Assembly: GCA_902764145.1 (NCBI GenBank)
Contig: CACWUS010000007.1
Coordinates: forward strand, 6,654 to 70,653
Length of the DNA: 64,000 bases
From: an uncultured Erysipelotrichaceae bacterium
GTDB taxonomy: Bacteria > Bacillota_I > Bacilli_A > RF39 > UBA660
Reading direction: 5' to 3'
The notes under the pieces were generated by a model. The model saw only the letters and a list, made by a program, of their open reading frames with translations, ran no database searches and was not told the origin of the DNA. Positions 4,311 through 55,982 of this stretch are shown here, piece by piece; the first letter of the stretch is position 1; every line of letters starts with the position of its first letter. The translations under genes and the position numbers were made by a program.

Positions 4311-4316
4311 GAAAAA

Positions 4317-7604: not shown

Positions 7605-7648
7605 ATTAAAATATGGTATAATTTTTATAGAATAAAGGGTTGATAAAT

Positions 7649-9409
7649 ATGTTTGGGAAAATTATTTCAGTATATGAAAATACAATAATAATAGAAAATC
7701 TAATTAAGAGAGTAGAAACTTCATTTCTAGGAGTTCATATTGTTTTTGAAGATAAATATAAAATACTAGCAGAAATTACAAAAATTACTCCTGAAACAAT
7801 TGAATGTATTTTAGTTGGAGAATTTGATAATGGTAAATTTTATAGTGGAATGACTCATAAGCCTAGTGCTAATTCAATTATAAGAATTGTAAATAAAGAT
7901 GAAGTAATTAATTTGTTAGGAAATCAAGAGATTGATTCTGATAAATCCCTTTATTTAGGAAAAAGCTTAATCTATGATGGATTTAATGTTTCTGTTGATA
8001 TAAATAATTTCTTTTCAAATCATTTTGCTATTTTAGGAAATAGTGGTGCTGGAAAGAGTTGTACAGTAGCTAGAATAATTCAAAATTTATTTTATAGACA
8101 AAAATATGTTCCCGAGAATGCTAGAATTGTCTTATTTGATGTTTATGGAGAATATCGTAATGCTTTTGATACAATTAATAAAACAGATAAATGTAGATAT
8201 AGAACTTTAACAACAGATGTTACATCAGAATATGATATTGTTAAAATACCACCATATTTTTTAGAAGCTGATGATATTGCATTATTATTAAATGTAGAAA
8301 GTCCTACACAAATACCTATAATTGAAAAAGCATTAAGGTATGTATACTTATTTACAGAGGAAGAAGATAAAGTTCTTGCATATAAAAATAATATAATTGC
8401 AAAAGCATTATTGGATGTTTTAACAAGTGGAAAAGAACCAGCTAGAATTAGAGATCAAATAGTAGCTGTATTAAGTACATTTCATACAAAAGATATTAAT
8501 TTAGAAAGTGAAATAGTACAACCAGGTTATGTAAGAACACTTAGACAATGTTTAAATGTTGATCAAAGTGGAAAAATTAATACAATACAATTAGTAATAG
8601 AATTTATTGAAACATTTATCAATGAAGATTTAAAATTAAATAAAAGTATGAAACCTAAAAAATATACTTTAAAGGACTTATATGATGCTTTTGAATTTGC
8701 ATTGATTAGTGAAGGTGTATTAAAAAGTGATAAGGTATATGATGTAAATAATATTTTAAAGGTTAGGTTAGATTCAATTATAAATGGTAATTATTTAAGA
8801 TATTTTGAAGTTAATGATTATATCACTATGGATGAATACATGAAAATGTTGTTCACAAGTAAAGATGGAAAAAAGGTTCAATTACTAAATTTTAACTTAA
8901 ATTATGTAGATGAAAGATTTGCTAAAATATTAACAAAAATATTTTCTAAAATGTTTTTAAACTATGCAATTAGTTTGGATAAAAAAGAAAATTATTCATT
9001 ACAAATAATTTTAGAAGAAGCACATAGATATGTTCAAAATGATAGTGATATAGATGTTTTAGGATATAATATTTTTGATAGAATTACTAAGGAAGGTAGA
9101 AAATATGGAGTTGTTCTTGGAATGGTTACTCAAAGGCCAAGTGAACTTTCTAATACTGCACTTAGTCAATGTTCTAATTATATAGTTCTTAGAATGTTCC
9201 ATCCAGATGATATTAGTATTGTTAAAGATATAACACATAGTATTTCTGAGCAAGATGTAGAAAAAATAAAATCACTTGGTTCTGGAAGCGCATTGTGCTT
9301 TGGTACAGCATTTAACATTCCATTATTTACTAGAATAGATCCGCCAAATCCATATCCAAACTCAGCAAATGCTGAAGTAGGTAATAGTTGGTTTTATAGT
9401 AATCAATAA
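7649..9409 (+). CDS. HerA-like (DUF87) P-loop ATPase
   Basis: ORF 7640..9409 trimmed to Met4 (ATG behind AAGGG). N-terminal barrel-like region, Walker A ILGNSGAGKSCT, Walker B IILEEAHRYV, GMVTQRPSEL. A TGgTATAAT extended -10 lies about 30 nt upstream. Confidence 0.75.
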   Translation: MFGKIISVYENTIIIENLIKRVETSFLGVHIVFEDKYKILAEITKITPETIECILVGEFDNGKFYSGMTHKPSANSIIRIVNKDEVINLLGNQEIDSDKSLYLGKSLIYDGFNVSVDINNFFSNHFAILGNSGAGKSCTVARIIQNLFYRQKYVPENARIVLFDVYGEYRNAFDTINKTDKCRYRTLTTDVTSEYDIVKIPPYFLEADDIALLLNVESPTQIPIIEKALRYVYLFTEEEDKVLAYKNNIIAKALLDVLTSGKEPARIRDQIVAVLSTFHTKDINLESEIVQPGYVRTLRQCLNVDQSGKINTIQLVIEFIETFINEDLKLNKSMKPKKYTLKDLYDAFEFALISEGVLKSDKVYDVNNILKVRLDSIINGNYLRYFEVNDYITMDEYMKMLFTSKDGKKVQLLNFNLNYVDERFAKILTKIFSKMFLNYAISLDKKENYSLQIILEEAHRYVQNDSDIDVLGYNIFDRITKEGRKYGVVLGMVTQRPSELSNTALSQCSNYIVLRMFHPDDISIVKDITHSISEQDVEKIKSLGSGSALCFGTAFNIPLFTRIDPPNPYPNSANAEVGNSWFYSNQ

Positions 9410-12280: not shown

Positions 12281-12450
12281 TATTTACTAATATTTATTTT
12301 TTTATTTAAAAAGTATCAATAATAATTGAAAAATTGACTAGGCAATTATTAAAAAATGATTAAAAGAAGTATATTTAAAAAAGATTTTTATTGATTTGAT
12401 TGAGATTTTCATATTTGTTATATTCCTTTATAAGAAAGGAGGTAGACAAT

Positions 12451-12777
12451 ATGTTAAATCAAATTGTGATAGCAGGAAGACTTGTTGCTGATCCAGAAAT
12501 AATAACAACTGATAATAATAAAAAAAGAACTTATATTACAGTTGCAGTTCCAAGAAGTTATAAAAATGTTGATGGCACATATGATACAGACTTTATAAAA
12601 TGTACATTATGGAATGTTATTGCAGAAAACACTTGCGAATATTGTAAAAAAGGAGATATTGTTGGTGTTAAAGGAAGAATACAAACTTCTAATTATGAGA
12701 AAGATGGTGAAAAAGTATATACAATGGATGTAATAGCAGAAAAAGTATCATTTTTAAGTAGTAAGAAAGCAGATTAA
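12451..12777 (+). CDS. Short single-stranded DNA-binding protein lacking the acidic C-terminal tip (SsbB-like)
   Basis: ORF 12400..12777 trimmed to Met18 (ATG behind AGGAGG). OB-fold SSB pattern (IAGRLVADPE...GDIVGVKGRIQTSNYE). Ends ...FLSSKKAD with no D-D-D-I-P-F type tail. Confidence 0.8.
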   Translation: MLNQIVIAGRLVADPEIITTDNNKKRTYITVAVPRSYKNVDGTYDTDFIKCTLWNVIAENTCEYCKKGDIVGVKGRIQTSNYEKDGEKVYTMDVIAEKVSFLSSKKAD

Positions 12778-23909: not shown

Positions 23910-25079
23910 ATGGCAAAACAAAAATTCGATCGTTCTAAAGAACATGTTAATATTGGTACTATTGGACACGTTGACCATGGTAAAACAACATTAACAGCTG
24001 CAATTACTAAATACTTTGGAGAATTTATGGATTATGATCAAATCGATAAAGCTCCAGAAGAAAGAGAAAGAGGTATTACTATTAATACTGCTCACGTTGA
24101 GTATACAACTGAAAAACGTCACTATGCTCACGTAGACTGCCCAGGACATGCTGACTATGTTAAAAACATGATCACAGGTGCTGCTCAAATGGATGGAGCT
24201 ATCCTAGTAGTTAGTGCTACAGATGGACCAATGCCTCAAACTAGAGAACACATCTTATTATCACGTCAAGTTGGTGTACCAAAAATGGTTGTATTTATCA
24301 ACAAATGTGATATGGTTGATGATGATGAACTTCTTGACTTAGTTGAAATGGAAGTCAGAGAATTATTAACTGAATATGGATTTGATGGAGACAATACTCC
24401 AGTTATTCGTGGTAGTGCTCTTAAAGCACTTGAAGGCGATGAAAAATGGATACAACCAATTAAGGATCTTATGGCTGCAGTTGATACATGGATTGATACT
24501 CCAGTAAGAGATACTGAAAAACCATTCTTAATGAGCATTGAAGATGTATTTACTATTACAGGACGTGGAACTGTTGTTACAGGTCGTGTTGAAAGAGGTA
24601 GATTAAATCTTAACGATGAAGTTGAAATCGTTGGTATTAGACCTACTAGAAAAACAGTAGTTACTGGTATTGAAATGTTTAGAAAATCTTTAGATTATGC
24701 TGAAGCTGGAGATAATGCTGGAGTTTTACTTCGTGGAATTAATAGAGAAGATGTTGAAAGAGGACAAGTTCTTTGCAAACCAGGAAGTGTTACACCTCAT
24801 AAGAAATTCAAAGCTAGCGTTTATGTTCTATCTAAAGAAGAAGGTGGACGTCATACTCCATTCTTTAGTAACTATAGACCTCAATTCTACTTTAGAACAA
24901 CTGATGTTACTGGTGTAATTACATTACCAGAAGGAACTGAAATGGTTATGCCTGGTGATAATGTAGATATGACTGTTGAATTAATCACTCCAATCGCAAT
25001 TGAAAATGGAACAAACTTCTCAATTCGTGAAGGTGGTAGAACAGTTGGTGCTGGTGTAGTATCAGAAATCTTAGAATAA
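23910..25079 (+). CDS. tuf: Elongation factor Tu
   Basis: 389 aa: [22 protein letters not shown], and C-terminal beta-barrel domains. Confidence 0.98.
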
Positions 25080-25093
25080 TTAAAGATATATTA

Positions 25094-25120
25094 AAGACCT
25101 TAATTATAAGGTCTTTTTTA
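25094..25120 (+). terminator. Intrinsic terminator after tuf
   Basis: AAGACCTTA-atta-TAAGGTCTT followed by TTTTA. Confidence 0.75.
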
Positions 25121-25149
25121 TTGCATAAAAAAATCTTTTATGTTATAAT
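25121..25149 (+). promoter_or_regulatory. Promoter of the HKTY-paralog operon
   Basis: TTGCAT (25121-25126), 17 nt spacer, TGtTATAAT (hexamer 25144-25149). Confidence 0.6.
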
Positions 25150-25178: not shown

Positions 25179-25934
25179 ATGGACGAAAATGGAATAATAA
25201 CAGGAAAGATACCAAGTAGTGGAAGTGGTATTCACAAAACATATGAAGAAAGTATTATTAGAGTATTTAAAAACACTGGTTTAAATGCTTACAAAAATGA
25301 ATATTTTATTAATGAAGCAGGTGGAATAACTTGGGCTAGTAGTGAAGAAGAATATACAAATATACTAAAGCAAATTGAAGATTGTGCTGAATTTAGAAGG
25401 GTTGAATTACTTGGAGTAATAGGACTTGGTAGCGATAAGGTTATAGTTGAGTTTATCGATTCAAATGCACTTAGAATGCATCTACTTGCAGAAGCTACTA
25501 TGAGAAATCAAGAATATCATTTAAATGTGGGAAATGAAGATGGTAAGTTATCATTTAGTGGACAGGGAGTTCATAAAACTTATCCAGAAAGTACGTTTAG
25601 AATTATAGATTCTTTTCATTACAAACAAGTATTAGATAAATCCAATTATGGTATTTTTATAAGAAAAAGTGATGGAGCTATTGTAATTCCATCACTTGCT
25701 AGTGAGTTTACTAATGGTTATTATAGAAACAATACTTATTATAAATATTACGAACTTTTATCAGATATACAAAAAAATAGTAATGAATATGAAGAAGTAG
25801 TAGTATTAAATACTATTTATAATGAGAAGAGCAATCAATTTTTCATTGAATTAATAGATAAAGATACTTTTGATATTTATACTTCAAGTAGTAGAGAAGC
25901 AAGACTATATAGTAGAGAATTAAAATTATTTTAA
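25179..25934 (+). CDS. Hypothetical protein, two-module member of the 'G-x-G-x-HKTY-x-ES' paralog family
   Basis: 251 aa behind a GGGGG RBS. N-terminal MDENGIITGKIPSSGSGIHKTYEES and internal GQGVHKTYPESTF at aa 128. No TM or signal peptide. Confidence 0.7.
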   Translation: MDENGIITGKIPSSGSGIHKTYEESIIRVFKNTGLNAYKNEYFINEAGGITWASSEEEYTNILKQIEDCAEFRRVELLGVIGLGSDKVIVEFIDSNALRMHLLAEATMRNQEYHLNVGNEDGKLSFSGQGVHKTYPESTFRIIDSFHYKQVLDKSNYGIFIRKSDGAIVIPSLASEFTNGYYRNNTYYKYYELLSDIQKNSNEYEEVVVLNTIYNEKSNQFFIELIDKDTFDIYTSSSREARLYSRELKLF

Positions 25935-25955
25935 TAAAAAAGGGGGTTTTTAGAA

Positions 25956-26666
25956 ATGGATGAAAATGGAATAATAACAGGAAAGATACCAGGTAGTGGA
26001 AGTGGTATTCACAAGACATATGAAGAAAGTATAATTAGATATAATCAAATTGATTATTTAAGAGCATATAATAATCAATACTTTATGAGTAGCGAAGGTC
26101 GTTTATGTTGGGGAGAAGATGAAGAAGATTATAATTATTATTTAAATAATTCAGAATATACAAAAGTTGATATATTAAGCGTGGAATGCACTCCAAATAA
26201 CGAATTTGTTGTTGAATTTATTGATTCAAAAGCATTAAGACTTCATTTAATAGCAGAAGCAGTTGAAAGACGTAATAAAGTAAATGTAAGTGAAAATGTA
26301 GATACTAATACATTACCAACAGTAGGAGTAGGTATGCATAAAACATATCCAGAAAGCACATTTTTAGTTTTAGGTGAAGTAGAATTTAGTGAATTATGTA
26401 GATTATCATATCTTGGTATATTTTTTAGTAAAAAACTTGGAAAAGTTGTATTTCCAAAAATTAATGATGTTTATGATAGTACAGGATATAGTTATATTGA
26501 GAATAGAAGAGTATATATGAGTGTAATAAATGAGCATTTAAATGATTATATCGAACTTTCAATATTAAATGTAGTACCAAATGGTGATAAATATATAGTT
26601 GAAGTTATTAATAAAGATATATTTGAATCTTATTCAGCAGGAAATGAACGTAAGTTAAGTTTATAA
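25956..26666 (+). CDS. Hypothetical protein, two-module paralog of 25179..25934
   Basis: 236 aa. The first 28 aa are nearly identical to the previous gene. Internal GVGMHKTYPESTF at aa 124. Confidence 0.7.
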   Translation: MDENGIITGKIPGSGSGIHKTYEESIIRYNQIDYLRAYNNQYFMSSEGRLCWGEDEEDYNYYLNNSEYTKVDILSVECTPNNEFVVEFIDSKALRLHLIAEAVERRNKVNVSENVDTNTLPTVGVGMHKTYPESTFLVLGEVEFSELCRLSYLGIFFSKKLGKVVFPKINDVYDSTGYSYIENRRVYMSVINEHLNDYIELSILNVVPNGDKYIVEVINKDIFESYSAGNERKLSL

Positions 26667-26678
26667 GGAGTGTTTAAA

Positions 26679-27053
26679 ATGGATGAAAATGGTTTTTATA
26701 CAGGAAAAATACCTGTAACTGGTGATGGTATACATAAAACATATGAAGAAAGCTTTTTTGATGTTTTAAATTTAAGAAGTTTACCTGAATTATTAAGATA
26801 TGAATCAAGAGGACTATATTATAAAATAGATGAATGTTTATTATATTGGCTAGATGATATAGAATTTGGAGAGAATGGAATTTGGAATAAAATTCAAAGT
26901 AATCCTAAAAATTTTATTGAAGTAAAAATTATAAATATTGTTCCTATAAATAATGATTGGGTTCTTCTTGAATATATTGATTCAAGTATATTAAATAATC
27001 ATTTATTGCATGAATCACAAGAAAAACAAGGATATCAAAGGGAGTTAAAATAG
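26679..27053 (+). CDS. Hypothetical protein, single-module paralog of the same family
   Basis: ORF 26670 trimmed to Met4 (ATG behind AAGGAG). MDENGFYTGKIPVTGDGIHKTYEES...LLEYIDSSILNNHLL. Confidence 0.65.
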   Translation: MDENGFYTGKIPVTGDGIHKTYEESFFDVLNLRSLPELLRYESRGLYYKIDECLLYWLDDIEFGENGIWNKIQSNPKNFIEVKIINIVPINNDWVLLEYIDSSILNNHLLHESQEKQGYQRELK

Positions 27054-27059
27054 CTTATT

Positions 27060-27818
27060 ATGAATAAGGAAATAAAAAAAGCAATTATTTCATTGTCTGT
27101 ATTTACTAGTTTATTAACAATGGCTGGATGTGGCAAAGAAGCAGAATGCGATATTGAAGGAAATCATATACATAAATATAAAAATAATGCTGGTATTGAA
27201 AGATATATAGAAGGAGAAAGCGAATCAAAATATAGTTTTAGTGGTAATATCTATTATAGAACTAATGAATATTTAACTCTTGATGAAGAAAGTCAAAAAA
27301 TATATAAAGTAGTTTCAGATAAATCACTAGTTGATATTAAAGATAATGAAGAATTATTATATAGTATTTCAGACAATTTAAAAGACTATTATGAATTTAA
27401 ATACTATTATTATGAAACAGAATATCATACACATTATTATACTGATGGAGATGGTAAGCAACACTCATATACAACTAGTGAAGAAGTAAAAAAATACAAA
27501 TGGACAACAGATCCACATCACAAAAATTTAACTGGTGATAGAAGAATAATAACTCATGTATTTTATGGTTATAAGATTGTTAAAGACAAGAACGGAAAGT
27601 ATAAGACTATTGAAGGTGGACCAGTTAATGATATTAGAGTATTACTTGAAATGGGATATGATTATGTAGATAATGATATTTATCATTCAATAGAAAGAGA
27701 AGATTATTTAAAGAAAATAGGATTATATAATTATGTTGATAGTGATAGTTTAAAACCTGTATATATAATTGAAGATGGTGCATATATTTTATATGATGAT
27801 TATATATTAAAAAGATAA
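27060..27818 (+). CDS. Putative lipoprotein, function unknown
   Basis: 252 aa. Signal peptide plus lipobox LLTMAG-C. Tyr/His-rich mature part. Confidence 0.65.
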   Translation: MNKEIKKAIISLSVFTSLLTMAGCGKEAECDIEGNHIHKYKNNAGIERYIEGESESKYSFSGNIYYRTNEYLTLDEESQKIYKVVSDKSLVDIKDNEELLYSISDNLKDYYEFKYYYYETEYHTHYYTDGDGKQHSYTTSEEVKKYKWTTDPHHKNLTGDRRIITHVFYGYKIVKDKNGKYKTIEGGPVNDIRVLLEMGYDYVDNDIYHSIEREDYLKKIGLYNYVDSDSLKPVYIIEDGAYILYDDYILKR

Positions 27819-27845
27819 GGATTTATTATAAATCCTTTTTTATTG
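27817..27845 (+). terminator. Intrinsic terminator
   Basis: AAGGATTT-attat-AAATCCTT followed by TTTTATT. Confidence 0.7.
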
Positions 27846-27892
27846 CTAACTTGATTTAAATCAATATATTTATTATAATTAATATGATTAAT

Positions 27893-28993
27893 ATGAAAAA
27901 TAAATATATTGTATTTTTTAAAGGAAGTATGGTTGTTTTATTAATACTACTTACAGTAGTAGGGTTTTCATTTGGAGTAACTTTCTCAAGTTTTGTTTAT
28001 TCATCCAATAATCATAGGGCTGTAGAAATGTATGTTAGTTCTTTAAATAATAAAATATATTTAAATAATGAAGAAACAAATTCAATTATAGTTAAACCTG
28101 GTAACAATTTAATAAATGTAAAAATAGAATCATTAAATAAAGTGGATACTTATTTTAAGCTTTCTATAAATAGTGATTTTGATTCATTTTATTATAATAG
28201 TTTAAAAGAAGAAATAATAAAAAAATTTGATACTGTTGAATATAATATAAATATTTATAATAATACAAATGAAAATAACAATATTACTTTTAAAGTTGAA
28301 AGTGGATATATTACAAATACAATTGATGATGTTAAAATAAGTAATGGTTACTATGAAATAAAAGATAGTATTAATACTGGATATGATTTAAATTTTAATA
28401 ATCAAAATTATAAGTTACTTGGAATAAATGATGATGGAAGTATTGAATTAATTGGTGAAACAATTGAAAACAATATTTTACTTGAGGGAAGTATTGGTTT
28501 TAATCAATCAATTGAGCAAATTAATCAGACTGTAAATAATTTAATTAATAATGAAAATATTATTGAAGTAAGAAATGTTAATATTAATGATATTTTGAAA
28601 TATACTAATAATGATATTATTAAATATATAGCTGTGCCTGTTAAGAAAAAAGATAATAATGATATATATGTACCATCTTCATTGTTTAAAACAGAAAATG
28701 AAGAAAGTTATAAAGTTGTTCCAATATTTTATTCACCTCAAATAACAATTGATAATGATTTGTTTAAAAGTGATTTGAATTATGAATTATTTAAATCAGA
28801 AAAAAGTTATTATCTATCTAGTAATTATAATGAAAGCAATTCTGATAATATTGAATATGGAATATATGAAGTATCTAATCAAATAAGTAAATTAAAACTA
28901 TATGATTGGGATAATAATTCATTTGAAACAAATTCTAATATTAGACCATTTATTAAATTATCTTATAAGATAAATATAAAAGACATTGATTAA
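27893..28993 (+). CDS. Secreted or membrane-anchored Asn-rich protein, function unknown
   Basis: ORF 27884 trimmed to Met4. N-terminal hydrophobic segment ending GFSFGVTFSSFVYSS, a weak resemblance to the TasA-type signal. Confidence 0.55.
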   Translation: MKNKYIVFFKGSMVVLLILLTVVGFSFGVTFSSFVYSSNNHRAVEMYVSSLNNKIYLNNEETNSIIVKPGNNLINVKIESLNKVDTYFKLSINSDFDSFYYNSLKEEIIKKFDTVEYNINIYNNTNENNNITFKVESGYITNTIDDVKISNGYYEIKDSINTGYDLNFNNQNYKLLGINDDGSIELIGETIENNILLEGSIGFNQSIEQINQTVNNLINNENIIEVRNVNINDILKYTNNDIIKYIAVPVKKKDNNDIYVPSSLFKTENEESYKVVPIFYSPQITIDNDLFKSDLNYELFKSEKSYYLSSNYNESNSDNIEYGIYEVSNQISKLKLYDWDNNSFETNSNIRPFIKLSYKINIKDID

Positions 28994-29004
28994 TCAATGT
29001 CTTT
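28979..29004. terminator. Perfect 26-bp palindrome spanning both convergent stop codons (candidate bidirectional terminator)
   Basis: AAAGACATTGATT|AATCAATGTCTTT. The + gene stop is TAA at 28991-28993 and the helD stop is at 28990-28992. Confidence 0.55.
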
Positions 29005-31038
29005 ATTTTGATTATAAATAATTAAATGATGCTGACTTCTTGTACATGATACATAATATAAATACCTTTCTTTACGTGTATATTTATTATCTTTTTCTGT
29101 ATATACAATAGTTGCATCAAATTCAAGTCCTTTTGCCATATAAGAAGGTAGGGTAACTAATTTTCTTGAAAATGCTTTTGAATTATTACTAATTAACACT
29201 AAATCATTTAAATCTCTTTTTAATAATTTATATATTTTAATTGTTTCAACATCTGTCTTAGTGATAATTGCAATACTTTTATTATCTTTTGATAGTTTAT
29301 TTATATCTTCTATTAGTTGATCATGTAAGTTTGTTTCACTCTTAAATTCCACAGGAATATGTGTATCTCTTCTTATGGCTGATACTAAATTTAAATCAAG
29401 TATTTTATTAGCATGTTCAATTATTTCAGGACTCGATCTATAAGTTTTATTTAGTTCTATGTAATTAACACTATCTTTAAATACAATTTTTAAATCTTCC
29501 AATGTTTTATATTGATAATAGGGATTTATTGTTTGATTAATATCACCTAATATAGTAAATTTACTTTTCTTTAATATTTTCTTAAGTAGAATATATTGTA
29601 AAATATTATAATCTTGAGCTTCATCTATTATTGTCTGTTCAATAGTATAATCGTTACCAAGAAACATTAATAAACTTTTCATATAAACAAACAAGCATGC
29701 ATCTTCAAATGATATTTTTTTATCATCAAGTTTATTTAAATAAGAATCCGGAATTAGTTTTTTATATGTAATAATAAAATCTTCACTTTTATAAAAATTT
29801 TTATATATTTCTTTTATATCAATAGAAATGTTAAGTCTTTCTTTTAGCCATTTTTTAATTTGCTTTTGTCTTGTTTTATTACCTTTAAATTCCATATCAG
29901 CTATCTTTGTTGCTATTTCATCTATTCTTTCAAATAGAGGTATAGATGAATATCTTTCAGTTAGATAGTAATTTAATTTGTCTTTTTCTATATATAAATC
30001 ATGATTTAATATATCACTAGTGAATCTAGCTTTTTTAGTATATTTTTCTATATATTTTTCTATTATTGGTATTATTTCATTAGATTGTTTAAATTTTATT
30101 AAATCAGTATATACTTCTTCATTTTTATAATATCTTTCAATGAATGATGTGAATGATTCTACATCTTTATATTCTGTTATATAAGTTTCTAAGAAATCGC
30201 TAAACGTTGTCTCTTTTGTATTTTCTTCTCCTAGTTCCGGAAGTACATTTGAAATATATTCACTAAAAACTCTGTTTGGTGCGAATATTAACACCTTGTC
30301 ACTTGTTAGATTTTTTATTTTATATAGTAAGAATGCTATTCTATGAAGTGCTACTGAAGTTTTACCAGAACCAGCTATACCTTGTACTATTAAATTTTTA
30401 TCTTTAACATTTCTAATAATTGCATTTTGTTCACTTTGAATAGTATTTACTATATTTTTCATGTATTCATCAGTTTTGTTTGCAAGGACTTCTTGTAACA
30501 ATTCATCTTGAACATTAAGTTTTGAATCAAATACACGCTTTATTTTAGCATCTTCAATAGTAAATTGTCTTTTATTATGCAAGTATCCTTTGATTATTCC
30601 ACCAGGGGCCTCGTATTGAACGTCACCTGACTCATAATCATAAAATATACTTGATATAGGAGCACGCCAATCATATATTATATTGTCTGTACCTTTAGTT
30701 AAATAGGTAAGGCCAATATAAATATCATTAATTCCTTCATCGCTCTCAAAAACGATTTTAGCAAAATATGGAGAATTTTGTATTTGATATAACTTTTTGT
30801 AATACTTTGCTTTCATCTCTAAATTATCAATTTCTTGATCATTATTAGACATGATAGTTTTCATTTCAGTTGGGTCTAAATCAGCTCTTGTATCCCAAAT
30901 GAACTTTTTAAATTCTTGTTGTTTTTCTTCGTTGTCATATAAATCTTGTGCGAGAGTAGATATTTGCTCTCTTAAAAGTTTTGTAGTTAATTCTAGATGA
31001 TGTTTTTCTTTTTGAAATTCTTCATCACTTAAATTCAT
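28990..31038 (-). CDS. helD: HelD-type UvrD/Rep superfamily 1 helicase (RNA polymerase-associated helicase IV-like)
   Basis: 682 aa. N-terminal coiled coil, WRAPISSIFYDY-type segment, Walker A GIAGSGKTSVALHR, Walker B IIDEAQDY, motif VI VSCTRSQHHL. Confidence 0.8.
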   Translation of the reverse strand: MNLSDEEFQKEKHHLELTTKLLREQISTLAQDLYDNEEKQQEFKKFIWDTRADLDPTEMKTIMSNNDQEIDNLEMKAKYYKKLYQIQNSPYFAKIVFESDEGINDIYIGLTYLTKGTDNIIYDWRAPISSIFYDYESGDVQYEAPGGIIKGYLHNKRQFTIEDAKIKRVFDSKLNVQDELLQEVLANKTDEYMKNIVNTIQSEQNAIIRNVKDKNLIVQGIAGSGKTSVALHRIAFLLYKIKNLTSDKVLIFAPNRVFSEYISNVLPELGEENTKETTFSDFLETYITEYKDVESFTSFIERYYKNEEVYTDLIKFKQSNEIIPIIEKYIEKYTKKARFTSDILNHDLYIEKDKLNYYLTERYSSIPLFERIDEIATKIADMEFKGNKTRQKQIKKWLKERLNISIDIKEIYKNFYKSEDFIITYKKLIPDSYLNKLDDKKISFEDACLFVYMKSLLMFLGNDYTIEQTIIDEAQDYNILQYILLKKILKKSKFTILGDINQTINPYYQYKTLEDLKIVFKDSVNYIELNKTYRSSPEIIEHANKILDLNLVSAIRRDTHIPVEFKSETNLHDQLIEDINKLSKDNKSIAIITKTDVETIKIYKLLKRDLNDLVLISNNSKAFSRKLVTLPSYMAKGLEFDATIVYTEKDNKYTRKERYLYYVSCTRSQHHLIIYNQNKDID

Positions 31039-39996: not shown

Positions 39997-40674
39997 ATGG
40001 ATGATATATTAGAATATCTTTCAAATAAATTAGAAGATTTTGATATTAAAAAATTAATATTTCCAACTATATTATTATTAATGTATATTGCAGGCTTTGT
40101 ATACTTTTTAACTATAATAAAAAATATAAATAAAAAAATTGATAAAAAGGAATTTGTTCATGAAGAAAGTCATACCATTATTCAAGATGATATTTATGTA
40201 GATGTAAAAGGTTCTGTTCAAAATCCCGGTGTATATAAATTAGATAGTAATTCGAGAGTTATTGATGCAATTAAGGCTTCTGGAGGAATAACTGAAGAAG
40301 CAAATACTAGATTTATAAACTTATCTAAACAATTAAATGATGGCGATGTAATAGTGGTATATTCTAAAAAAGAAATAAATGATGCTAAAAAAGATAATAC
40401 TGTTTATGTAGAAGTTCCTTGTGTGTGTGAAGAGGTTAAAAATGATGCTTGTTTTAATGAAGAAAAGAAAGAAGTAACAAATGAAAAAGTAAATATTAAT
40501 ACATCTACAATTGAAGAATTAAAAACATTAACTGGAATAGGGGAAGCAAAAGCAAATGCAATAATTGAATATAGAAATAAAAATGGTAATTTTAAAAACA
40601 TTGAAGATATAAAGAATGTAAGTGGTATAAGTGAAAGTGTTTTCGTTAAAATTAAGGAAAATATTACTATCTGA
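39997..40674 (+). CDS. comEA: Competence DNA receptor ComEA
   Basis: 225 aa. N-terminal TM, SLBB-like segment (VDVKGSVQNPGVYKL), and C-terminal helix-hairpin-helix pair (LKTLTGIGEAKANAIIEYR...VSGISESVF). Confidence 0.9.
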   Translation: MDDILEYLSNKLEDFDIKKLIFPTILLLMYIAGFVYFLTIIKNINKKIDKKEFVHEESHTIIQDDIYVDVKGSVQNPGVYKLDSNSRVIDAIKASGGITEEANTRFINLSKQLNDGDVIVVYSKKEINDAKKDNTVYVEVPCVCEEVKNDACFNEEKKEVTNEKVNINTSTIEELKTLTGIGEAKANAIIEYRNKNGNFKNIEDIKNVSGISESVFVKIKENITI

Positions 40675-42721
40675 TTTGTTCTTTATAATACTATTAATAT
40701 TCTCTTTTGTTTATTTAATTATTTATCATTTTTTATTTGACATTAGTAAAATCTATAATTATGATACTAATTATTTTGAAATTAAAATAAATAATTATTA
40801 TATCGATGGAGATAAATTAACACTTGAATTTGATAATTTAGTAGGTATGTATTATTTTAAAAATGAAAATGAAATAAAGTCATTTAAATTAAAATATTCA
40901 TTAGGAGATATTATAAGAATTAATGGTAATTTATCATTTCCAAATAATAATACAATACCTAATACTTTTAATTATAAAAATTATTTATATCATAAGAATA
41001 TTGAATATATTTTACATATTGATAATTTTAGTTTAATTAGTAAAAATAAAAATATTTTTTTAAAGATTAAAAACTATATTTATAAGAGAATAGATAATAT
41101 AAAATATAATGACTATTTATATGCTTTTATTTTAGGTAAAAGTTCAAACATTGATAAAAGTGCTTATAATAATTACAAGACTAATGGAATTACTCATTTA
41201 TTTGCTTTATCTGGGCTTCATGTTTCATTATTTTCAAGTATAATTTTGTCATTATTAAAAAGAATTAATACTAATGAAAAAGTATCATTTATAATAACAA
41301 GTTTATTTCTAATATTTTTTTCTTTCATAGCATCTTTTGCACCATCTATTTTAAGAGCAACTATATTTTTTATAATATCAGAAATTAACAAAATATATTA
41401 TTTTTATATAAAGCCAAAAAATATTTTATATTTAACTTTTACAACTTTAATATTTATTAATCCACATTATATATTTAATATGGGTTTTATATTATCATTT
41501 ACTATTACATTTTTTATTTTGTTATATAATGAAAATAATAATAAAAGTTCAATTTTAAAAATAAGTGTTATTTCATTTTTAAGTAGTCTACCAATAATAA
41601 TAAACATGTCTTATGAAATTAATATTATTGGATTTTTTAATAACTTATTTTTTATACCATATGTTTCATATATTGTATTCCCGTTTTCTTTATTATGTTT
41701 GGTATTTAATAAATTATCTCATATATTAAATTTTACTATTATTATTATGGAATTTATTTCTAAAATAAGTTCAAATTTATTAAATATTACAATATGTTTT
41801 TCAAAAATATCATTTTCTTTAATAATAGTATATTATTTCTTATTAATATTAATTATAAAAAAGATTAAAAAAGCAAGAATTTTGTTTATCATACTTATTA
41901 TATTTATGTATTTAAAACCATATCTAAATAAAGAATATATAGTATATTTTAATGATGTAAAACAAGGAGATAGTATTTTGATGGTTTTAAATAATAAAAG
42001 TATTTTAATAGATACTGGAGGAATAACAACATATCATAACAATGAATGGTCCAAAAGAAATAGAGATTATAATCTAATGGTTGATAGTTTAATACCATTT
42101 TATAAAAGCGTTGGATTAAAACAAATTGATTATTTGATTCTAAGTCATGGAGATTATGATCATATGGGTGAAGCAATTAATTTAGTTAATAATTTTAAAG
42201 TAGAGAAAGTAATATTTAATTGTGGACCATATAACGATTTGGAAAAAGAATTAATAAAAGTTTTAGATAAAAAGAAAATTAAATATTACTCATGTATTAA
42301 AGAATTAAATATAGACAATAATAAACTCTATTTCTTACAAACAAAAGAATATGATAATGAAAATGATAATAGTAATGTTATTTATACAGAAATAAATGGT
42401 TACAAATTTATGTTTATGGGAGATGCGAGTGTAACTGCTGAAAAAGAAATATTAAATAAATATAATCCACATAATATAGATGTATTAAAAGTAGGTCATC
42501 ATGGAAGTAGGACAAGTTCTAGTGAAGATTTTATTAATAAAATAAATCCTAGATATTCAATAATTAGAATTAGTGTGGGTAAGAATAATAGGTATGGACA
42601 TCCAGATAAAGAAGTACTAAATAATTTAGAAAATTCAAAAATATATAGAACAGATGAAGATGGAAGTGTTATGTTTAAGATTAAAAATAATAAATTAAAA
42701 GTTGAGACTTGTAGTCCATAG
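40631..42721 (+). CDS. comEC: Competence DNA channel ComEC/Rec2 with C-terminal MBL domain
   Basis: 696 aa, polytopic. Competence-domain motif GITHLFALSGLHVS. MBL motifs ILIDTGG, LILSHGDYDHMGE, LKVGHHGSRTSS. Only non-ATG starts are available (GTG 40631 overlaps comEA by 44 nt), so the start is uncertain. Confidence 0.88.
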   Translation: MKVFSLKLRKILLSDLFFIILLIFSFVYLIIYHFLFDISKIYNYDTNYFEIKINNYYIDGDKLTLEFDNLVGMYYFKNENEIKSFKLKYSLGDIIRINGNLSFPNNNTIPNTFNYKNYLYHKNIEYILHIDNFSLISKNKNIFLKIKNYIYKRIDNIKYNDYLYAFILGKSSNIDKSAYNNYKTNGITHLFALSGLHVSLFSSIILSLLKRINTNEKVSFIITSLFLIFFSFIASFAPSILRATIFFIISEINKIYYFYIKPKNILYLTFTTLIFINPHYIFNMGFILSFTITFFILLYNENNNKSSILKISVISFLSSLPIIINMSYEINIIGFFNNLFFIPYVSYIVFPFSLLCLVFNKLSHILNFTIIIMEFISKISSNLLNITICFSKISFSLIIVYYFLLILIIKKIKKARILFIILIIFMYLKPYLNKEYIVYFNDVKQGDSILMVLNNKSILIDTGGITTYHNNEWSKRNRDYNLMVDSLIPFYKSVGLKQIDYLILSHGDYDHMGEAINLVNNFKVEKVIFNCGPYNDLEKELIKVLDKKKIKYYSCIKELNIDNNKLYFLQTKEYDNENDNSNVIYTEINGYKFMFMGDASVTAEKEILNKYNPHNIDVLKVGHHGSRTSSSEDFINKINPRYSIIRISVGKNNRYGHPDKEVLNNLENSKIYRTDEDGSVMFKIKNNKLKVETCSP

Positions 42722-42725
42722 AAAG
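42146..42725 (+). repeat. Direct repeat copy A (functional comEC 3' end)
   Basis: About 95% identical by eye to 44271..44795. Homology ends at ...GTAGTCCATAGAAAG in both copies. Confidence 0.85.
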
Positions 42726-42733
42726 GAGTATAT

Positions 42734-43624
42734 ATGAATTATTATAATGAGATAAAAGAGACATTAATAAAAAGTGAAATATACGACAGAGCAAAAGATT
42801 ATTCGAAAGATAGACATAAAGTTATTGTATATTTTGAAACTGGAAAACTATTAAGTGAAGCAGGGAAAGAATATGGTAAAAATATAATTAAACAATACTC
42901 TGAAAACTTAATAATTGAAGTTGGTAAAAAATATAATGAAAGAAATCTTAGATATATGAGGCAATTTTATGAAATTTTCTCAAGTATAAAATGGAACCCA
43001 ATGGGTTCCAAATTAAGTTGGAGTCATTTTAGAGAATTGTTAATAGTCAAAAACATTGATGCAATCATGTATTATATTGATATATGTGAAAGAAATAATT
43101 TGACAAGAAGACAATTACAAGAACGAATAAAAAACAAGGAATATGATAGATTAAGTAATGAAACTAAAAATAAGCTAATTACTAAAGAGCAATTAAATGT
43201 CAACGATTTAGTGCCTAATCCTATAATTATAAAAACAAATATTTTAAAAGAAGAATTATCAGAATATGCATTAAAACAGGCTATATTAAATAGCATTGAT
43301 GAGTTTTTAAGGCAGTTAGGTATTGGTTTTACCTATGTTGGTAATGAATACAAAATCAAAATTGGCGATAGATATAATTATATTGATTTATTACTATATA
43401 ACATAAAATATAAGTGCTATGTAGTAGTAGAATTAAAAGTAACTGAATTAAAGAAAGAACATACAGGTCAAATTATGACATACATGAATTTTATTAATAA
43501 GAATGTTAAAACGATAGAAGAAAATGATACAGTTGGTATTATTATATGTAAGCAAGACAATGAATATGTAATTAAATATTGTTCGGATGATAGAATAATT
43601 GCTAGAGAATATGAATTGTTGTGA
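42734..43624 (+). CDS. DUF1016/YhcG-like PD-(D/E)XK nuclease-fold protein
   Basis: 296 aa. C-terminal core YIDLLLYNIKYKCYVVVELKVTELK (D...E-x-K) preceded by a helical N-domain. RBS AAAGGAG. Confidence 0.65.
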   Translation: MNYYNEIKETLIKSEIYDRAKDYSKDRHKVIVYFETGKLLSEAGKEYGKNIIKQYSENLIIEVGKKYNERNLRYMRQFYEIFSSIKWNPMGSKLSWSHFRELLIVKNIDAIMYYIDICERNNLTRRQLQERIKNKEYDRLSNETKNKLITKEQLNVNDLVPNPIIIKTNILKEELSEYALKQAILNSIDEFLRQLGIGFTYVGNEYKIKIGDRYNYIDLLLYNIKYKCYVVVELKVTELKKEHTGQIMTYMNFINKNVKTIEENDTVGIIICKQDNEYVIKYCSDDRIIAREYELL

Positions 43625-43677
43625 TATAATAAATAAATCATTTAGAATTAGTAATTTGAAAGTGAGTTGAATCCTAT

Positions 43678-44220
43678 ATGCTTGATATCAATATAATATT
43701 TAATATTTTATTAAGTGATAATATTTCATTATATGAAAATGAACTTTTTGAATTAATACCAGAACTAAAGTATGAAAAAGGGTTTGAACAAAAAAGTGAA
43801 TGGCATTGTTTTGATGTATGGGATCATACATTAGCTACTATAAATGCATGTGATATGAATCAGGAAGATAGATTAGTAATGCTCTTACATGATATTGGCA
43901 AGCCATTTTCATTTCAAGACTATGGAAATATAAGACACTTTAAAGGTCATGCTAAAAAATCTGCTGAAATTGCAAAGATAGTTTTAGATAGATTTAATAT
44001 TAATAACGAAATAAAAAACACGTTATTAAAATTAATAGAATATCATTCATGTAGAATAGATGTTGATGACATAAATATAAATAACGTTAAATTTTATAAA
44101 AGATTATTAAAAATTCAAATGTGTGATGCAAAAGGTTATGAAGAGGAGCATTCAAAAAAAATAATGGAACAACTAAATTATACTCGAAAAAAAATAAATT
44201 TATTAAAAGAGGGCTTATAA
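43678..44220 (+). CDS. Stand-alone HD-domain protein resembling the HD region of CCA-adding/poly(A) polymerase family enzymes
   Basis: 180 aa: WHCFDVWDHTLATI...LLHDIGKP...FKGHAKKSAEIA. No nucleotidyltransferase head domain. Confidence 0.6.
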   Translation: MLDINIIFNILLSDNISLYENELFELIPELKYEKGFEQKSEWHCFDVWDHTLATINACDMNQEDRLVMLLHDIGKPFSFQDYGNIRHFKGHAKKSAEIAKIVLDRFNINNEIKNTLLKLIEYHSCRIDVDDININNVKFYKRLLKIQMCDAKGYEEEHSKKIMEQLNYTRKKINLLKEGL

Positions 44221-44233
44221 ATAAGCTTTTTTT
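44213..44233 (+). terminator. Intrinsic terminator
   Basis: GCTTAT-aa-ATAAGC followed by TTTTTTT. Confidence 0.65.
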
Positions 44234-44270
44234 CTTTGTTTAAATCTGTATGCACAAACGTATATCACCA

Positions 44271-44795
44271 CATGGAGATTATGATCATATGGGTGAAGCA
44301 ATTAATTTAGTTAATAATTTTAAGGTAGGGAAAGTTATATTCAATTGTGGACCATATAACGATTTGGAAAAAGAATTAATAAAAGTTTTAGATAAAAAGA
44401 AAACTAAGTATTATTCATGTATTAAAGAATTAAATATAGACAATAATAAACTCTATTTCTTACAAACAAAAGAATATGATAATGAAAATGATAATAGTAA
44501 TGTTATTTATATAGAATTTAATAATTACAAATTTATGTTTATGGGAGATGCATCTATTACAACAGAAACAGAAATATTAAATAAATATAATCTACATAAT
44601 ATAGATGTATTAAAAGTAGGTCATCATGGAAGTAGGACAAGTTCTAGTGAAGATTTTATTAATAAAATAAATCCTAGATATTCAATAATTAGAATCTAAA
44701 AAACTCAAAAATATATAGAACAGATATAGATGGCAGTATTATGTTTAAAATTAAAAATAATAAATTAAAAATTGAGACTTGTAGTCCATAGAAAG
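44271..44795 (+). pseudogene. Degenerate duplicate of the comEC 3' end (direct repeat copy B)
   Basis: ORF 44250..44699 translates to ...HGDYDHMGEAINLVNNFK...VGHHGSRTSSSEDFINKINPRYSIIRI*. An internal deletion of about 55 nt relative to copy A gives a premature stop. The out-of-frame tail still aligns to the comEC end. Confidence 0.85.
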
Positions 44796-55981: not shown

Positions 55982-55982
55982 T

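What the first reader, a model, noticed from the sequence alone, without database searches (positions are those of the whole stretch)
25179..27053. Tandem array of an unrecognised ~115-aa module (G-x-G-x-HKTY-x-ES ... V-E-F-I-D) present 2+2+1 times, with a near-identical 84-nt 5' segment
Seen:
- Three consecutive genes open with MDENG(I/F)(I/Y)TGKIP..G.GIHKTYEES.
- Genes 1 and 2 each contain a second internal copy of the motif: GQGVHKTYPESTF at aa 128 and GVGMHKTYPESTF at aa 124.
- Each module ends with a (V/I)(V/L)E(F/Y/V)I(D/N)..(A/I)L..HL-type strand/helix. Duplication has therefore occurred both within and between genes.
- The first 84 nt of genes 1 and 2 differ at only 4 positions. The rest of the proteins has drifted to roughly one-third identity.

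This mosaic pattern suggests gene conversion or constraint at the nucleotide level. The proteins have no signal peptide or TM. The array has its own promoter right after the tuf terminator and is followed by a lipoprotein and a secreted protein. I cannot match the module to any family I know.

Inference: a diversifying cytoplasmic paralog array of this shape is typical of immunity or anti-effector gene sets. A T7SS is present in the same window. This link is a hypothesis only.
Basis: partly seen in the sequence, partly recalled or inferred. Interest (0 to 1): 0.65.

Follow-up and report, generated by a model that had tools for sequence, protein, structure and literature searches.

The report
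Recombining tandem array, novel protein module
Three neighbouring genes in an uncultured cattle/sheep gut bacterium encode five copies of a small protein domain that matches no known family or fold; the genes swap sequence with each other and vary in number between strains, but their proposed role as toxin-immunity genes is unproven and no link to the type VII secretion system was found.

Summary
Window 25179-27053 holds three genes (251, 236 and 124 aa) built from 2+2+1 copies of a ~115-aa module. The first 84 nt of genes 1 and 2 differ at 4 positions, while the rest of the proteins is 35% identical.

The 5' tract results from repeated gene conversion. In three genomes, paralogs within a genome are closer (3-6 differences) than orthologs between genomes (12). 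One relative carries a g1/g2 hybrid gene made by unequal crossover. Module number and arrangement vary between relatives: 2+2+1, 2+1, 2+2, or five single-module genes.

The module has no match in Pfam, NCBIfam, PHROGs, PADLOC, PDB sequences, or Foldseek against PDB and BFVD. Only 62 cluster representatives exist among 1.84 billion proteins, all from ruminant-gut Erysipelotrichaceae-like bacteria.

The array, a lipoprotein and a membrane-anchored protein form a fast-evolving islet between tuf and helD (dN/dS 0.25-0.6 versus 0.03-0.1).

The immunity reading is only partly supported. The evolutionary behaviour resembles esaG/tipC arrays. However, none of about seven genomic contexts contains a toxin or T7SS gene, and EssC lies 21 kb away behind housekeeping genes. 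Function remains inferred.

The parts
23910..25079 (+). tuf (EF-Tu), the conserved upstream flank of the islet
   Evidence: ORF translation. It is 99.7% identical in L007 with dN/dS 0.03. It is the upstream neighbour in L001, L005, L007, L016 and L017.
25093..25116 (+). terminator-like hairpin after tuf
   Evidence: 10-bp stem, 4-nt loop and a T run. The scan found 4 such sites against 0.3 expected from shuffles.
25121..25149 (+). promoter-like site (TTGCAT, 17-nt spacer, TGtTATAAT extended -10)
   Evidence: Read directly from the sequence. The automatic scan did not list it because the -35 hexamer matches only 3 of 6 positions. It is a consensus match only, and no expression data exist.
25179..25934 (+). 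gene 1 (251 aa): N-module at residues 1-117 and variant C-module at residues 118-251
   Evidence: HMM hits at residues 1-111 (E = 1e-27) and 122-230 (E = 2e-15). The AlphaFold model shows the same fold twice.
25179..25262 (+). 5' gene-conversion tract, copy in gene 1
   Evidence: 4 differences from 25956-26039. 0 of 20,000 shuffles reach this similarity. Within-genome paralogs are closer than orthologs in three genomes. Repeat family D1.
25956..26666 (+). gene 2 (236 aa): N-module at residues 1-113 and variant C-module at residues 114-236
   Evidence: HMM hits at residues 1-110 (E = 1e-27) and 115-224 (E = 3e-14).
25956..26039 (+). 5' gene-conversion tract, copy in gene 2
   Evidence: Same evidence as for 25179-25262. 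Metagenome contigs break at 25991/26003, as expected for a repeat.
26679..27053 (+). gene 3 (124 aa): single module
   Evidence: HMM E = 2e-34. AlphaFold model has pLDDT 81 and pTM 0.70, with order beta-alpha-beta-beta-alpha-beta-beta-alpha, and residues 1-17 are unstructured.
27060..27818 (+). lipoprotein (252 aa), co-oriented and always directly downstream of the array in the tuf-helD context
   Evidence: Lipobox LTMAG|C. Present in 1-2 copies in L001-L007, L012, L016, L017 and L019. dN/dS is 0.21-0.54. No family match.
27884..28993 (+). membrane-anchored or secreted protein (369 aa), last gene of the unit
   Evidence: N-terminal hydrophobic helix with Kyte-Doolittle score 2.53. Conserved position in all tuf-helD loci. 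dN/dS is 0.28-0.79. No family match.
28979..29004 (.). bidirectional terminator-like hairpin between the islet and convergent helD
   Evidence: 11-bp stem, reported on both strands.
28990..31038 (-). helD (RNA polymerase recycling motor), the conserved downstream flank
   Evidence: NCBIfam NF041464 HelD_BACSU, 480 bits against a cut-off of 419. 84-94% identical in relatives, with dN/dS 0.045-0.11.

Best explanation
SHOWN.
- Genes 1-3 encode cytoplasmic, acidic proteins made of five copies of a previously undescribed ~115-aa alpha/beta domain.
- The domain has a fixed-length conserved core. It consists of an N-terminal peptide (M-x-x-N-x(6)-I-P-x-x-G-x-G-x-x-K-T-Y-x-E-S), strand beta4, and the beta5/alpha3 junction (E-x-I-x(4)-L-x-x-H-L-x-x-E).
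- Two loops that are hypervariable in both sequence and length interrupt the core.
- The family is confined to a small clade of ~26% GC Erysipelotrichaceae-like bacteria from ruminant guts, where it forms tandem arrays.
- The arrays change through tandem duplication, fusion of single-module genes into two-module genes, and unequal crossover (a g1/g2 hybrid exists). They also change through repeated short-tract gene conversion seeded in the 5' motif. That motif is the only stretch that stays similar enough at the DNA level.
- In this genome the array sits between tuf and helD. With a lipoprotein and a membrane-anchored protein it forms one apparent transcription unit. All of these genes evolve 5-10 times faster at non-synonymous sites than their flanks.

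INFERRED.
- The proteins are most likely a repertoire of specificity-diversified binding or neutralising proteins in a conflict system, in other words immunity-like.
- The conserved core would supply a common fold and a shared interaction or active site.
- The two hypervariable loops would supply target specificity.
- Two-module genes would be covalent heterodimers of what are separate subunits elsewhere.
- The target is unknown. It is not detectably a T7SS toxin. It may be related to the co-transcribed, co-diversifying envelope proteins.
For: Architecture and novelty:
- Searches give the module alignment, the invariant residues (Y22, S25, E98, I100, L105, H108, L109) and the hypervariable loops of 5-33 and 6-21 residues.
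- Searches find no family.
- Searches give a confident model with no Foldseek match (best E about 0.1-0.5, TM < 0.35).
- One search finds 62 cluster representatives in 1.84e9 proteins. Searches find 9 and 3 hits in 5.8e9.
- Searches place the family in ruminant-gut MAGs.

Recombination:
- first 84 nt differ at 4, 6 and 3 positions between paralogs within a genome, against 12 between orthologs.
- 0 of 20,000 shuffles reach this, in three genomes.
- P0007 is g1-like for residues 1-55 and g2-like afterwards.
- arrays of 2+2+1, 2+1, 2+2, 5x1, 4x1 and 2x1.

Fast evolution:
- dN/dS 0.29-0.34 for the array, against 0.03-0.05 for the flanks.
- dS of the islet is similar to dS of helD, but dN is 5-6 times higher.
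- divergent alleles of the lipoprotein and the secreted protein co-exist in single samples.

Operon: searches show terminators bracketing 25179-28993 and conserved gene order in more than 10 loci.

Immunity-like traits:
- Tandem non-identical paralogs that recombine through homology blocks are described for esaG and tipC (PMC9484751).
- The family is acidic. 95% of members are net negative, with a median of -4.4 per 100 aa against -1.7 for the window background.
Against: - No toxin, LXG/WXG100, nuclease or other effector domain lies beside any array.
- Seven invariant residues, four of them polar (Y, S, E, H) and joined by nearly invariant K20, T21 and E112, are more typical of an enzyme or ligand site than of most immunity families.
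- Gene-wide dN/dS stays below 1, so positive selection is not demonstrated.
- In other genomes the module pairs with, and is once fused to, a different ~145-aa protein instead of the envelope proteins. The envelope-protein link is therefore not universal.
- There are no expression data.
- The structure predictions rest on shallow alignments of 17 and 10 sequences, and no AlphaFold-DB-scale fold library was available.
Confidence: 0.4

Rival explanations
1. T7SS immunity array. The modules neutralise LXG-type toxins delivered by the type VII secretion system whose EssC gene is in the window.
For: EssC is real: TIGR03928, 964 bits against a cut-off of 778. The array behaves like the esaG/tipC immunity arrays, with homology-block recombination and variable copy number (PMC9484751). 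The proteins are cytoplasmic and acidic.
Against: - The array is 21.4 kb from essC, behind about 17 mostly housekeeping genes.
- Nothing downstream of essC or next to the array has a toxin or WXG/LXG domain.
- None of the other contexts (L008-L013, L016, L021, L024) carries T7SS genes.
- There is no match to DUF600 or any other Pfam immunity family.
Confidence: 0.08
2. Dedicated cytoplasmic accessory factors for the co-transcribed, hypervariable lipoprotein and membrane-anchored protein. They could act as chaperones, export adaptors or regulators, and would co-diversify with their clients.
For: The order array - lipoprotein(s) - ~370-400-aa protein is conserved in every tuf-helD locus, across 40-100% protein identity. 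The unit is bracketed by terminators. All members share elevated dN/dS. Lipoprotein copy number also varies between 1 and 2.
Against: - Family members in L008, L009, L010, L013 and L021 have no such envelope genes nearby and pair with a different partner.
- Module number (2-5) does not track lipoprotein number (1-2).
- A possible internal promoter precedes the last gene.
Confidence: 0.2
3. A small enzyme or ligand-binding regulatory domain. The invariant Y, S, E, H and E residues would form an active or metal/ligand site, and paralogs would differ in substrate. The function might be tied to translation, given the neighbouring genes.
For: Seven invariant and six nearly invariant residues across 42 members at about 29% mean identity. 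They are concentrated in two motifs and include K, T, Y, E, S, E, H and E. The weak Foldseek neighbours are sensor or regulatory alpha/beta domains such as PAS/Cache, Roadblock and ACT, none significant. The gene upstream of or near the arrays is tuf, tgt, alaS, obg or aspS in five of the chromosomal contexts.
Against: - Enzymes rarely form copy-number-variable arrays with dN/dS of 0.3-0.6.
- The most conserved peptide is predicted unstructured.
- C-modules consistently replace H108 with Y.
- The distribution is extremely narrow.
- Translation genes are common in small genomes, so the neighbour pattern may be chance.
Confidence: 0.15
4. One component of a two-gene conflict cassette (toxin-antitoxin, abortive-infection or anti-phage type) together with the ~145-aa 'YYxLxLNNN' partner. 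The window's array would be an orphaned or repurposed version lacking that partner.
For: Module gene(s) are immediately followed or flanked by the partner, often with overlapping or abutting coding regions, in L009, L010, L013 and L021. P0029 is a module-partner fusion. In L013 the neighbours are AAA_5 ATPases with PHROG matches. The arrays lie in variable spots between housekeeping genes.
Against: - The partner is absent from the window and from all tuf-helD loci.
- There is no PADLOC or PHROG match for module or partner.
- No relative was found in viral contigs, phage records or plasmid records.
- Both proteins are acidic.
- A toxin fused to its antitoxin would be unusual.
Confidence: 0.15

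Closest known systems
esaG (DUF600) and tipC tandem T7SS immunity gene arrays of Staphylococcus aureus and Streptococcus (Garrett et al. 2022, PMC9484751)
   Same: Both are strings of non-identical tandem paralogs encoding small cytoplasmic proteins. Both have short blocks of high nucleotide similarity, one at the 5' end in tipC, that mediate recombination between paralogs. Both show gene loss, expansion and hybrid genes between strains.
   Different: There is no sequence match to DUF600 or any Pfam family. No adjacent toxin or T7SS gene is present. The location is between tuf and helD. Here there is internal domain duplication into two-module genes. Only one homology block was found, and it coincides with the invariant N-terminal motif.
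Immunity gene arrays of polymorphic toxin systems in general (own knowledge of the Zhang/Aravind 2012 classification; not re-read here)
   Same: Both are fast-evolving, often acidic small cytoplasmic proteins in tandem paralog arrays with copy-number variation. 'Orphan' arrays without a cognate toxin are known.
   Different: Such families are usually broadly and patchily distributed through horizontal transfer and are found next to toxin cassettes in at least some genomes. This family has only 62 cluster representatives, lies in one narrow clade, and is never seen next to a toxin domain.
Variable surface lipoprotein loci of Mycoplasma (vsp/vsa/vlp) with conserved 5' gene ends used for recombination (own knowledge; a lead, not tested)
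   Same: Both occur in low-GC organisms labelled Tenericutes-like. Both are multigene loci with nearly identical 5' ends and divergent bodies, and both include hypervariable lipoproteins. Recombination at the 5' end reshuffles the genes.
   Different: Here the homogenised genes encode cytoplasmic proteins, not the lipoprotein. The repeats are direct, so recombination gives deletion, duplication or conversion rather than an expression-site switch. No site-specific recombinase lies adjacent.
Small alpha/beta sensor or dimerisation domains (PAS/Cache, Roadblock/LC7, ACT)
   Same: They share the size (~100 aa), a mixed sheet packed by helices, and a tendency to act as dimers or tandem pairs. They are the weak top Foldseek neighbours.
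   Different: No match is significant (E >= 0.1, TM <= 0.35). The strand order beta-alpha-beta-beta-alpha-beta-beta-alpha, together with a long C-terminal helix and an unstructured conserved N-peptide, is not that of these folds.

Membership tests
EsaG/DUF600, TipC and other described T7SS immunity families | Sequence match to the family profile | tested here: not met
   Pfam at E <= 1 returns only sub-threshold noise for all three genes. NCBIfam returns none.
EsaG/DUF600, TipC and other described T7SS immunity families | Encoded next to a T7SS toxin (EsaD, LXG, TelC-like) or inside or at the end of the T7SS locus | tested here: not met
   essC is at 6-3761 and the array at 25179. Housekeeping genes lie between them. 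There are no toxin domains in the window ORFs or in other family contexts.
EsaG/DUF600, TipC and other described T7SS immunity families | Tandem non-identical paralogs that recombine through conserved homology blocks, giving copy-number variation | tested here: met
   Compare PMC9484751.
EsaG/DUF600, TipC and other described T7SS immunity families | Binds and neutralises a cognate toxin | not testable with these tools
   This needs co-expression or binding experiments, and no candidate toxin has been identified.
Any curated protein family (Pfam-A, NCBIfam, PHROGs, PADLOC) | Score above the family threshold | tested here: not met
   No public source names any member.
Any solved or viral predicted fold (PDB, BFVD) | Significant structural or sequence-profile similarity | tested here: not met
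   Foldseek best E is 0.5 (PDB) and 0.096 (BFVD) for the single-module model with pLDDT 81, and 0.23 for the two-module model. A profile search against PDB sequences gives best E 0.72. AFDB was not available, so cellular predicted folds remain untested.
Type II toxin-antitoxin or two-gene defence cassette | Obligate adjacent partner gene | tested here: not met
   The ~145-aa partner seen in L009, L010, L013 and L021 is absent from the window and from all tuf-helD loci.
Phage or plasmid cargo gene | Presence on viral or plasmid sequences | tested here: not met
   No relative in IMG/VR scans, in GenBank phage records or in PLSDB plasmids. The scans were pattern-limited, so distant members could be missed.

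The most novel reading that the evidence does not exclude
The five-gene islet may be a self-contained, previously unknown antagonism or surface-exclusion system of ruminant-gut Erysipelotrichaceae-like bacteria. In this reading the hypervariable lipoprotein and membrane-anchored protein are the outward-facing effector or receptor pair. The new-fold modules are the matching cytoplasmic immunity or neutraliser repertoire, kept evolvable by 5' gene conversion and unequal crossover. A looser version is that the module is a new, recombination-diversified specificity scaffold with two hypervariable loops on a conserved core.
Probability: 0.12. Interest if true: 0.75.

Novelty: new variant of a known kind. 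Interest (0 to 1): 0.48.

Why it matters
The protein family itself is new. It has no sequence family, no name in any source, and no fold match in PDB or BFVD. Its genomic behaviour, however, is a known kind: tandem paralogs that diversify while a short homology block keeps them recombining. The locus gives an unusually clean natural example of short-tract gene conversion confined to the one segment held constant by protein-level selection, seen independently in three genomes together with a captured unequal-crossover product.

If the immunity-like reading is right, it would reveal a conflict system in uncultured rumen bacteria that does not depend on recognisable toxin or secretion genes. If instead the conserved Y/S/E/H/E site is catalytic, the family is a new small enzyme or sensor fold.

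The practical impact is limited by the very narrow taxonomic range and by the lack of a cultured host.

Tried and rejected
- **Family libraries.** Pfam, NCBIfam, PADLOC and PHROGs gave nothing for the modules, the lipoprotein, the secreted protein or the partner.
- **PDB sequence searches.** Profile and single-sequence searches gave nothing.
- **Foldseek.** Both AlphaFold models against PDB, and the single-module model against BFVD, returned only noise. I do not interpret the weak PAS/ACT/KH-like hits.
- **Broad alignment A2 for locus scans.** The narrower A1 pattern found only 3 genome loci, 2 metagenome loci and 0 viral loci.
- **Phage or plasmid origin.** Rejected for lack of any hit.
- **RNA-seq evidence.** No RNA run is listed, so operon structure and promoter remain inferred.
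- **Horizontal replacement of the islet.** Rejected as the explanation for its divergence, because its dS equals that of flanking helD.
- **Pure protein-level constraint as the cause of the 5' identity.** Rejected, because orthologs and gene 3 share the same residues yet have 3-4 times more synonymous differences.
- **Double-glycine leader, T7SS YxxxD/E signal or encapsulin-type targeting peptide.** I considered whether the N-terminal motif or the C-terminal 'LxLK' tail fits one of these. By eye the spacing does not fit. I did not pursue this further.
- **P0006 as a real fusion.** Its contig switches from 38% to 24% GC at the junction, so an assembly chimera is more likely.
Full report
**1. 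What is in the sequence.**

Between the tuf stop codon (25079) and the convergent helD gene (28990-31038, minus strand) lie five co-oriented genes:
- gene 1: 25179-25934, 251 aa
- gene 2: 25956-26666, 236 aa
- gene 3: 26679-27053, 124 aa
- a lipoprotein: 27060-27818, 252 aa, lipobox LTMAG|C
- a 369-aa protein with one N-terminal hydrophobic helix: 27884-28993

Terminator-like hairpins occur only at 25093-25116 and 28979-29004 (4 found against 0.3 expected). A TTGCAT-17-TGtTATAAT promoter-like site lies at 25121-25149, read. The five genes therefore look like one transcription unit. This is inferred, because no RNA run was available.

Genes 1-3 each have a G-rich ribosome-binding site. They have no TM-grade hydrophobic segment and are acidic, with net charge -9 to -13.

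**2. Check of the observation.**

All three genes open with MDENG(I/F)(I/Y)TGKIP..G.GIHKTYEES. Genes 1 and 2 carry a second copy of the motif starting at residues 128 and 124.

Five modules align over their whole length. The invariant residues are T, Y, E, S and a beta-strand E (alignment A1).

An HMM built from 42 single-module relatives recognises the C-terminal halves of genes 1 and 2 at E = 2e-15 and 3e-14. Neither half of genes 1 or 2 was in that alignment. A DNA repeat scan independently returns five copies of a 42-nt core and three copies of the gene 5' end.

The first 84 nt of genes 1 and 2 differ at 4 positions. After that, nucleotide identity falls from 95% to about 55-60%, and protein identity from 96% to 35%. 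No codon-column shuffle out of 20,000 produces such a window.

**3. The 5' tract is gene conversion.**

The same 28 codons are conserved at the protein level in orthologs and in gene 3, which gives an internal control.

| Comparison (first 84 nt) | Differences |
|---|---|
| Window g1 vs g2 | 4 |
| L007 g1 vs g2 | 6 |
| L006 gene A vs gene B | 3 |
| Window g1 vs L007 g1 (orthologs) | 12 |
| Window g2 vs L007 g2 (orthologs) | 12 |

Over the rest of the genes the relation is reversed. Orthologs are 72-78% identical in protein, and paralogs are about 35-40% identical.

Synonymous differences at identical codons tell the same story. They are 0.07-0.12 between paralogs within a genome. Between orthologs they are 0.27-0.32, and against gene 3 they are 0.40. 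This is the classical signature of concerted evolution, arising independently in three lineages.

A product of unequal crossover also exists. In L004/L005 the first array gene (P0007) is g1-like for residues 1-55 (75-100% identity to the g1 ortholog). After that it is g2-like (75-100% identity to g2). The array there lacks a separate gene 1.

The conversion tract coincides with the invariant N-terminal motif. My reading is that protein-level constraint keeps this stretch similar enough for homologous recombination. Recombination then homogenises it further. This is an inference.

**4. Variation between relatives.**

In the tuf-helD context the array varies as follows:
- 2+2+1 modules in the window, L001, L003, L007 and L019
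- hybrid(2)+1 in L004/L005
- at least 2+2 with no gene 3 in L002
- 2+2 in L006
- at least 1+1 in L012
- five single-module genes in L016-L018

Lipoprotein number varies between one and two.

Elsewhere in related genomes the family forms other arrays:
- four modules in L009
- two modules in L010
- five modules in L021, at a site syntenic with L010
- single copies in L008, L013 and L024

Two-module genes therefore appear to be fusions of what are separate single-module genes in other lineages.

**5. Rates.**

| Gene, window vs L007 | dN/dS |
|---|---|
| gene 1 | 0.34 |
| gene 2 | 0.29 |
| gene 3 | 0.32 |
| lipoprotein | 0.25 |
| 369-aa protein | 0.28 |
| tuf | 0.03 |
| helD | 0.045 |
| MFS transporter | 0.13 |

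Against the more distant L002, islet dS (0.6-0.95) equals helD dS (0.84), but dN is 5-6 times higher (dN/dS 0.44-0.60 against 0.09). Against L016 the 369-aa protein reaches 0.79.

The islet is therefore not an older or imported allele. It evolves faster at the protein level. Values stay below 1 gene-wide, so positive selection is not demonstrated. The estimates use the Nei-Gojobori method in a 26% GC genome and are approximate.

In single rumen samples two divergent alleles of the lipoprotein co-exist (0 against 61 differences in 510 nt). Two alleles of the 369-aa protein also co-exist.

**6. What the module is.**

No Pfam, NCBIfam, PADLOC or PHROG family matches, and no source names any member.

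Word-indexed searches of 5.8 billion proteins give 9 hits for gene 1 and 3 for gene 3. An exhaustive HMM search of 1.84 billion cluster representatives gives 62 hits at E <= 0.001. Most are single-module proteins of 113-140 aa.

Genome hits are MAGs labelled 'uncultured Tenericutes' and 'uncultured Erysipelotrichaceae'. Runs holding the sequence are bovine and sheep gut metagenomes. The window is 25.9% GC.

AlphaFold gives a confident single-module model (pLDDT 81, pTM 0.70). Its order is beta-alpha-beta-beta-alpha-beta-beta followed by a long C-terminal helix. Residues 1-17, the most conserved stretch, are unstructured. The two-module model (pLDDT 69.5, pTM 0.49) shows the fold twice, with both N-motifs unstructured.

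Foldseek finds nothing significant in PDB or BFVD. A profile search of PDB sequences also finds nothing.

Across 42 members at 29% mean identity:
- The invariant residues are Y22, S25, E98, I100, L105, H108 and L109.
- N4, I11, K20, T21 and E112 are nearly invariant.
- The N-motif (about 25 aa), beta4 (11 aa) and the beta5/alpha3 start (18 aa) have fixed or nearly fixed length.
- The segment 58-78 varies from 5 to 33 residues, and the beta4-beta5 hairpin from 6 to 21.
- C-modules of the two-module genes keep T-Y-P-E-S and the strand E but consistently replace H108 with Y.
- The family is acidic. 95% of members are net negative.

**7. Context and the immunity hypothesis.**

The window does encode EssC (TIGR03928, 964 bits). 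It lies at 6-3761, cut by the window start, and is followed by an HD-domain protein, valS and a HerA-like ATPase. About a dozen further genes, including rpsL, rpsG, fusA and tuf, separate it from the array.

No toxin, LXG or WXG100 domain was found among the unassigned window ORFs. None was found in the precomputed or computed Pfam annotations of the other contexts. The downstream 'UvrD-like' gene is helD.

A second recurrent context pairs the module with a ~145-aa protein ('..YY.L.LNNN..'). This protein directly follows or flanks the module genes, and one protein (P0029) is a module-partner fusion. That partner is absent from the window and has no family either.

No relative was found on viral contigs, phage records or plasmids.

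**8. Interpretation.**

The evolutionary mechanism is shown. It consists of duplication, fusion, unequal crossover and 5' gene conversion.

The biological role is not shown. Several traits point to a conflict-related repertoire of binding proteins:
- lineage restriction
- tandem non-identical paralogs
- copy-number turnover
- a 5-10-fold excess of non-synonymous change shared with co-transcribed envelope proteins
- acidity
- a conserved core carrying two hypervariable loops

The closest described behaviour is that of the esaG and tipC immunity arrays (PMC9484751). I therefore rank an immunity-like or neutraliser role first, at about 0.3-0.4. I reject the specific T7SS link (about 0.08).

The invariant polar residues and the predicted-disordered conserved N-peptide fit immunity proteins poorly. 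They keep three alternatives alive: an enzyme or ligand-sensor role, an accessory role for the envelope proteins, and a two-component cassette with the partner protein.

Confidence in the anatomical and evolutionary description is high, about 0.85 or more. The 0.4 given for the best explanation reflects its functional part.

**9. Limits.**
- Most related loci are short metagenome contigs.
- The structure predictions rest on shallow alignments.
- No AFDB-scale fold library was available.
- There are no expression data.
- The pattern-based locus scans only reach members that carry the HKTY(E/P)ES variant of the motif.

Noticed in passing
window 6-3761: An EssC (T7SS ATPase) gene, cut by the window start (TIGR03928, 964 bits). 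It is followed directly by an HD-domain protein (4272-5048) and valS (5050-7581), so the T7SS locus appears to end here with no downstream toxin or immunity genes in the window.
   Followed up: partly
window 7640-9409: A HerA/DUF87-type ATPase. Its best NCBIfam matches are 'anti-phage-associated helicase HerA' models, but it scores far below their cut-offs (183 against 800 bits). I did not check for a partner nuclease or Sir2 gene.
   Followed up: no
L009 9538-10014 and 11425-11883; L010 8375-8818; L013 1189-1605 and 1971-2405; L021 797-1243 and 3049-3504: A second unannotated family of ~140-158-aa acidic proteins with an N-terminal '..YY.L.LNNN..' motif and a helical C-terminal half. It directly follows or brackets module arrays outside the tuf-helD context, and in P0029 it is fused to a module. 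It has no Pfam, PHROG, NCBIfam or PDB match.
   Followed up: partly
L005/L016 (tuf), L010 (tgt, queA), L024/L025 (alaS), L008 (obg, yqeG, yqeH), L009 (aspS): In five chromosomal contexts the family sits immediately downstream of, or within a few genes of, a translation-related gene. This could be chance in small genomes, or it could reflect insertion behind highly expressed operons.
   Followed up: no
window 26679-27053 vs L007 3461-3835: Gene 3 has a much lower synonymous divergence (dS 0.13) than its neighbours in the same pair of genomes (0.45-0.72). This suggests a recent exchange of this one gene between lineages.
   Followed up: no
L006 99-851 vs 861-1586, about nt 270-330 of the genes: A second near-identical tract (90-98% identity) between the two paralogs, over the VEFID..L..HL motif region. 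It suggests that conversion can also be seeded at the second conserved motif.
   Followed up: no
window 26907-27416 and 27878-28154: In single bovine or sheep gut samples two contigs cover the same stretch. For the lipoprotein they show 0 and 61 differences, and for the 369-aa protein 0 and 36. Divergent alleles therefore co-exist in one community.
   Followed up: partly
L028 (1292 bp), junction at about nt 856, corresponding to window 25658: Protein P0006 joins about 60 residues of an unrelated zinc-finger-like protein from 38% GC DNA to the C-module of gene 1 (24% GC). It is probably an assembly chimera, though an insertion cannot be excluded. The gene after it is g1-like beyond nt 84, which hints at a g1-g1 arrangement.
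   Followed up: partly
window 25100-25124 and 27822-27846: A 25-nt direct repeat (84% identity) lies in the intergenic regions upstream of gene 1 and upstream of the 369-aa gene. A promoter-like site (TTGATT-17-TATAAT, 27851-27879) follows the second copy, so an internal promoter is possible.
   Followed up: no
window 40631-44699: By eye, a ComEC-like gene seems to be split. A 696-aa N-terminal part lies at 40631-42721 and a 149-aa metallo-beta-lactamase-like C-terminal part at 44250-44699. Between them are a YhcG PD-(D/E)XK nuclease/DUF1016 gene (42734-43624, Pfam hit) and an HD-like gene (43678-44220). The ComEC assignment was not tested.
   Followed up: no
window 44867-45889: A Fic/DOC-domain protein (Pfam E = 4e-7), 18 kb downstream of the array. 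It is the only toxin-like domain seen in the window and is not adjacent to the array.
   Followed up: no
window 55490-62439: The right end of the window looks like an integrated mobile element. It holds a SpaA/thioester-domain surface protein (57556-60336), a sortase (60311-60919), an HTH_36 replication-type protein (60926-61759) and a second SSB-like gene (62050-62439; compare 12400-12777).
   Followed up: no
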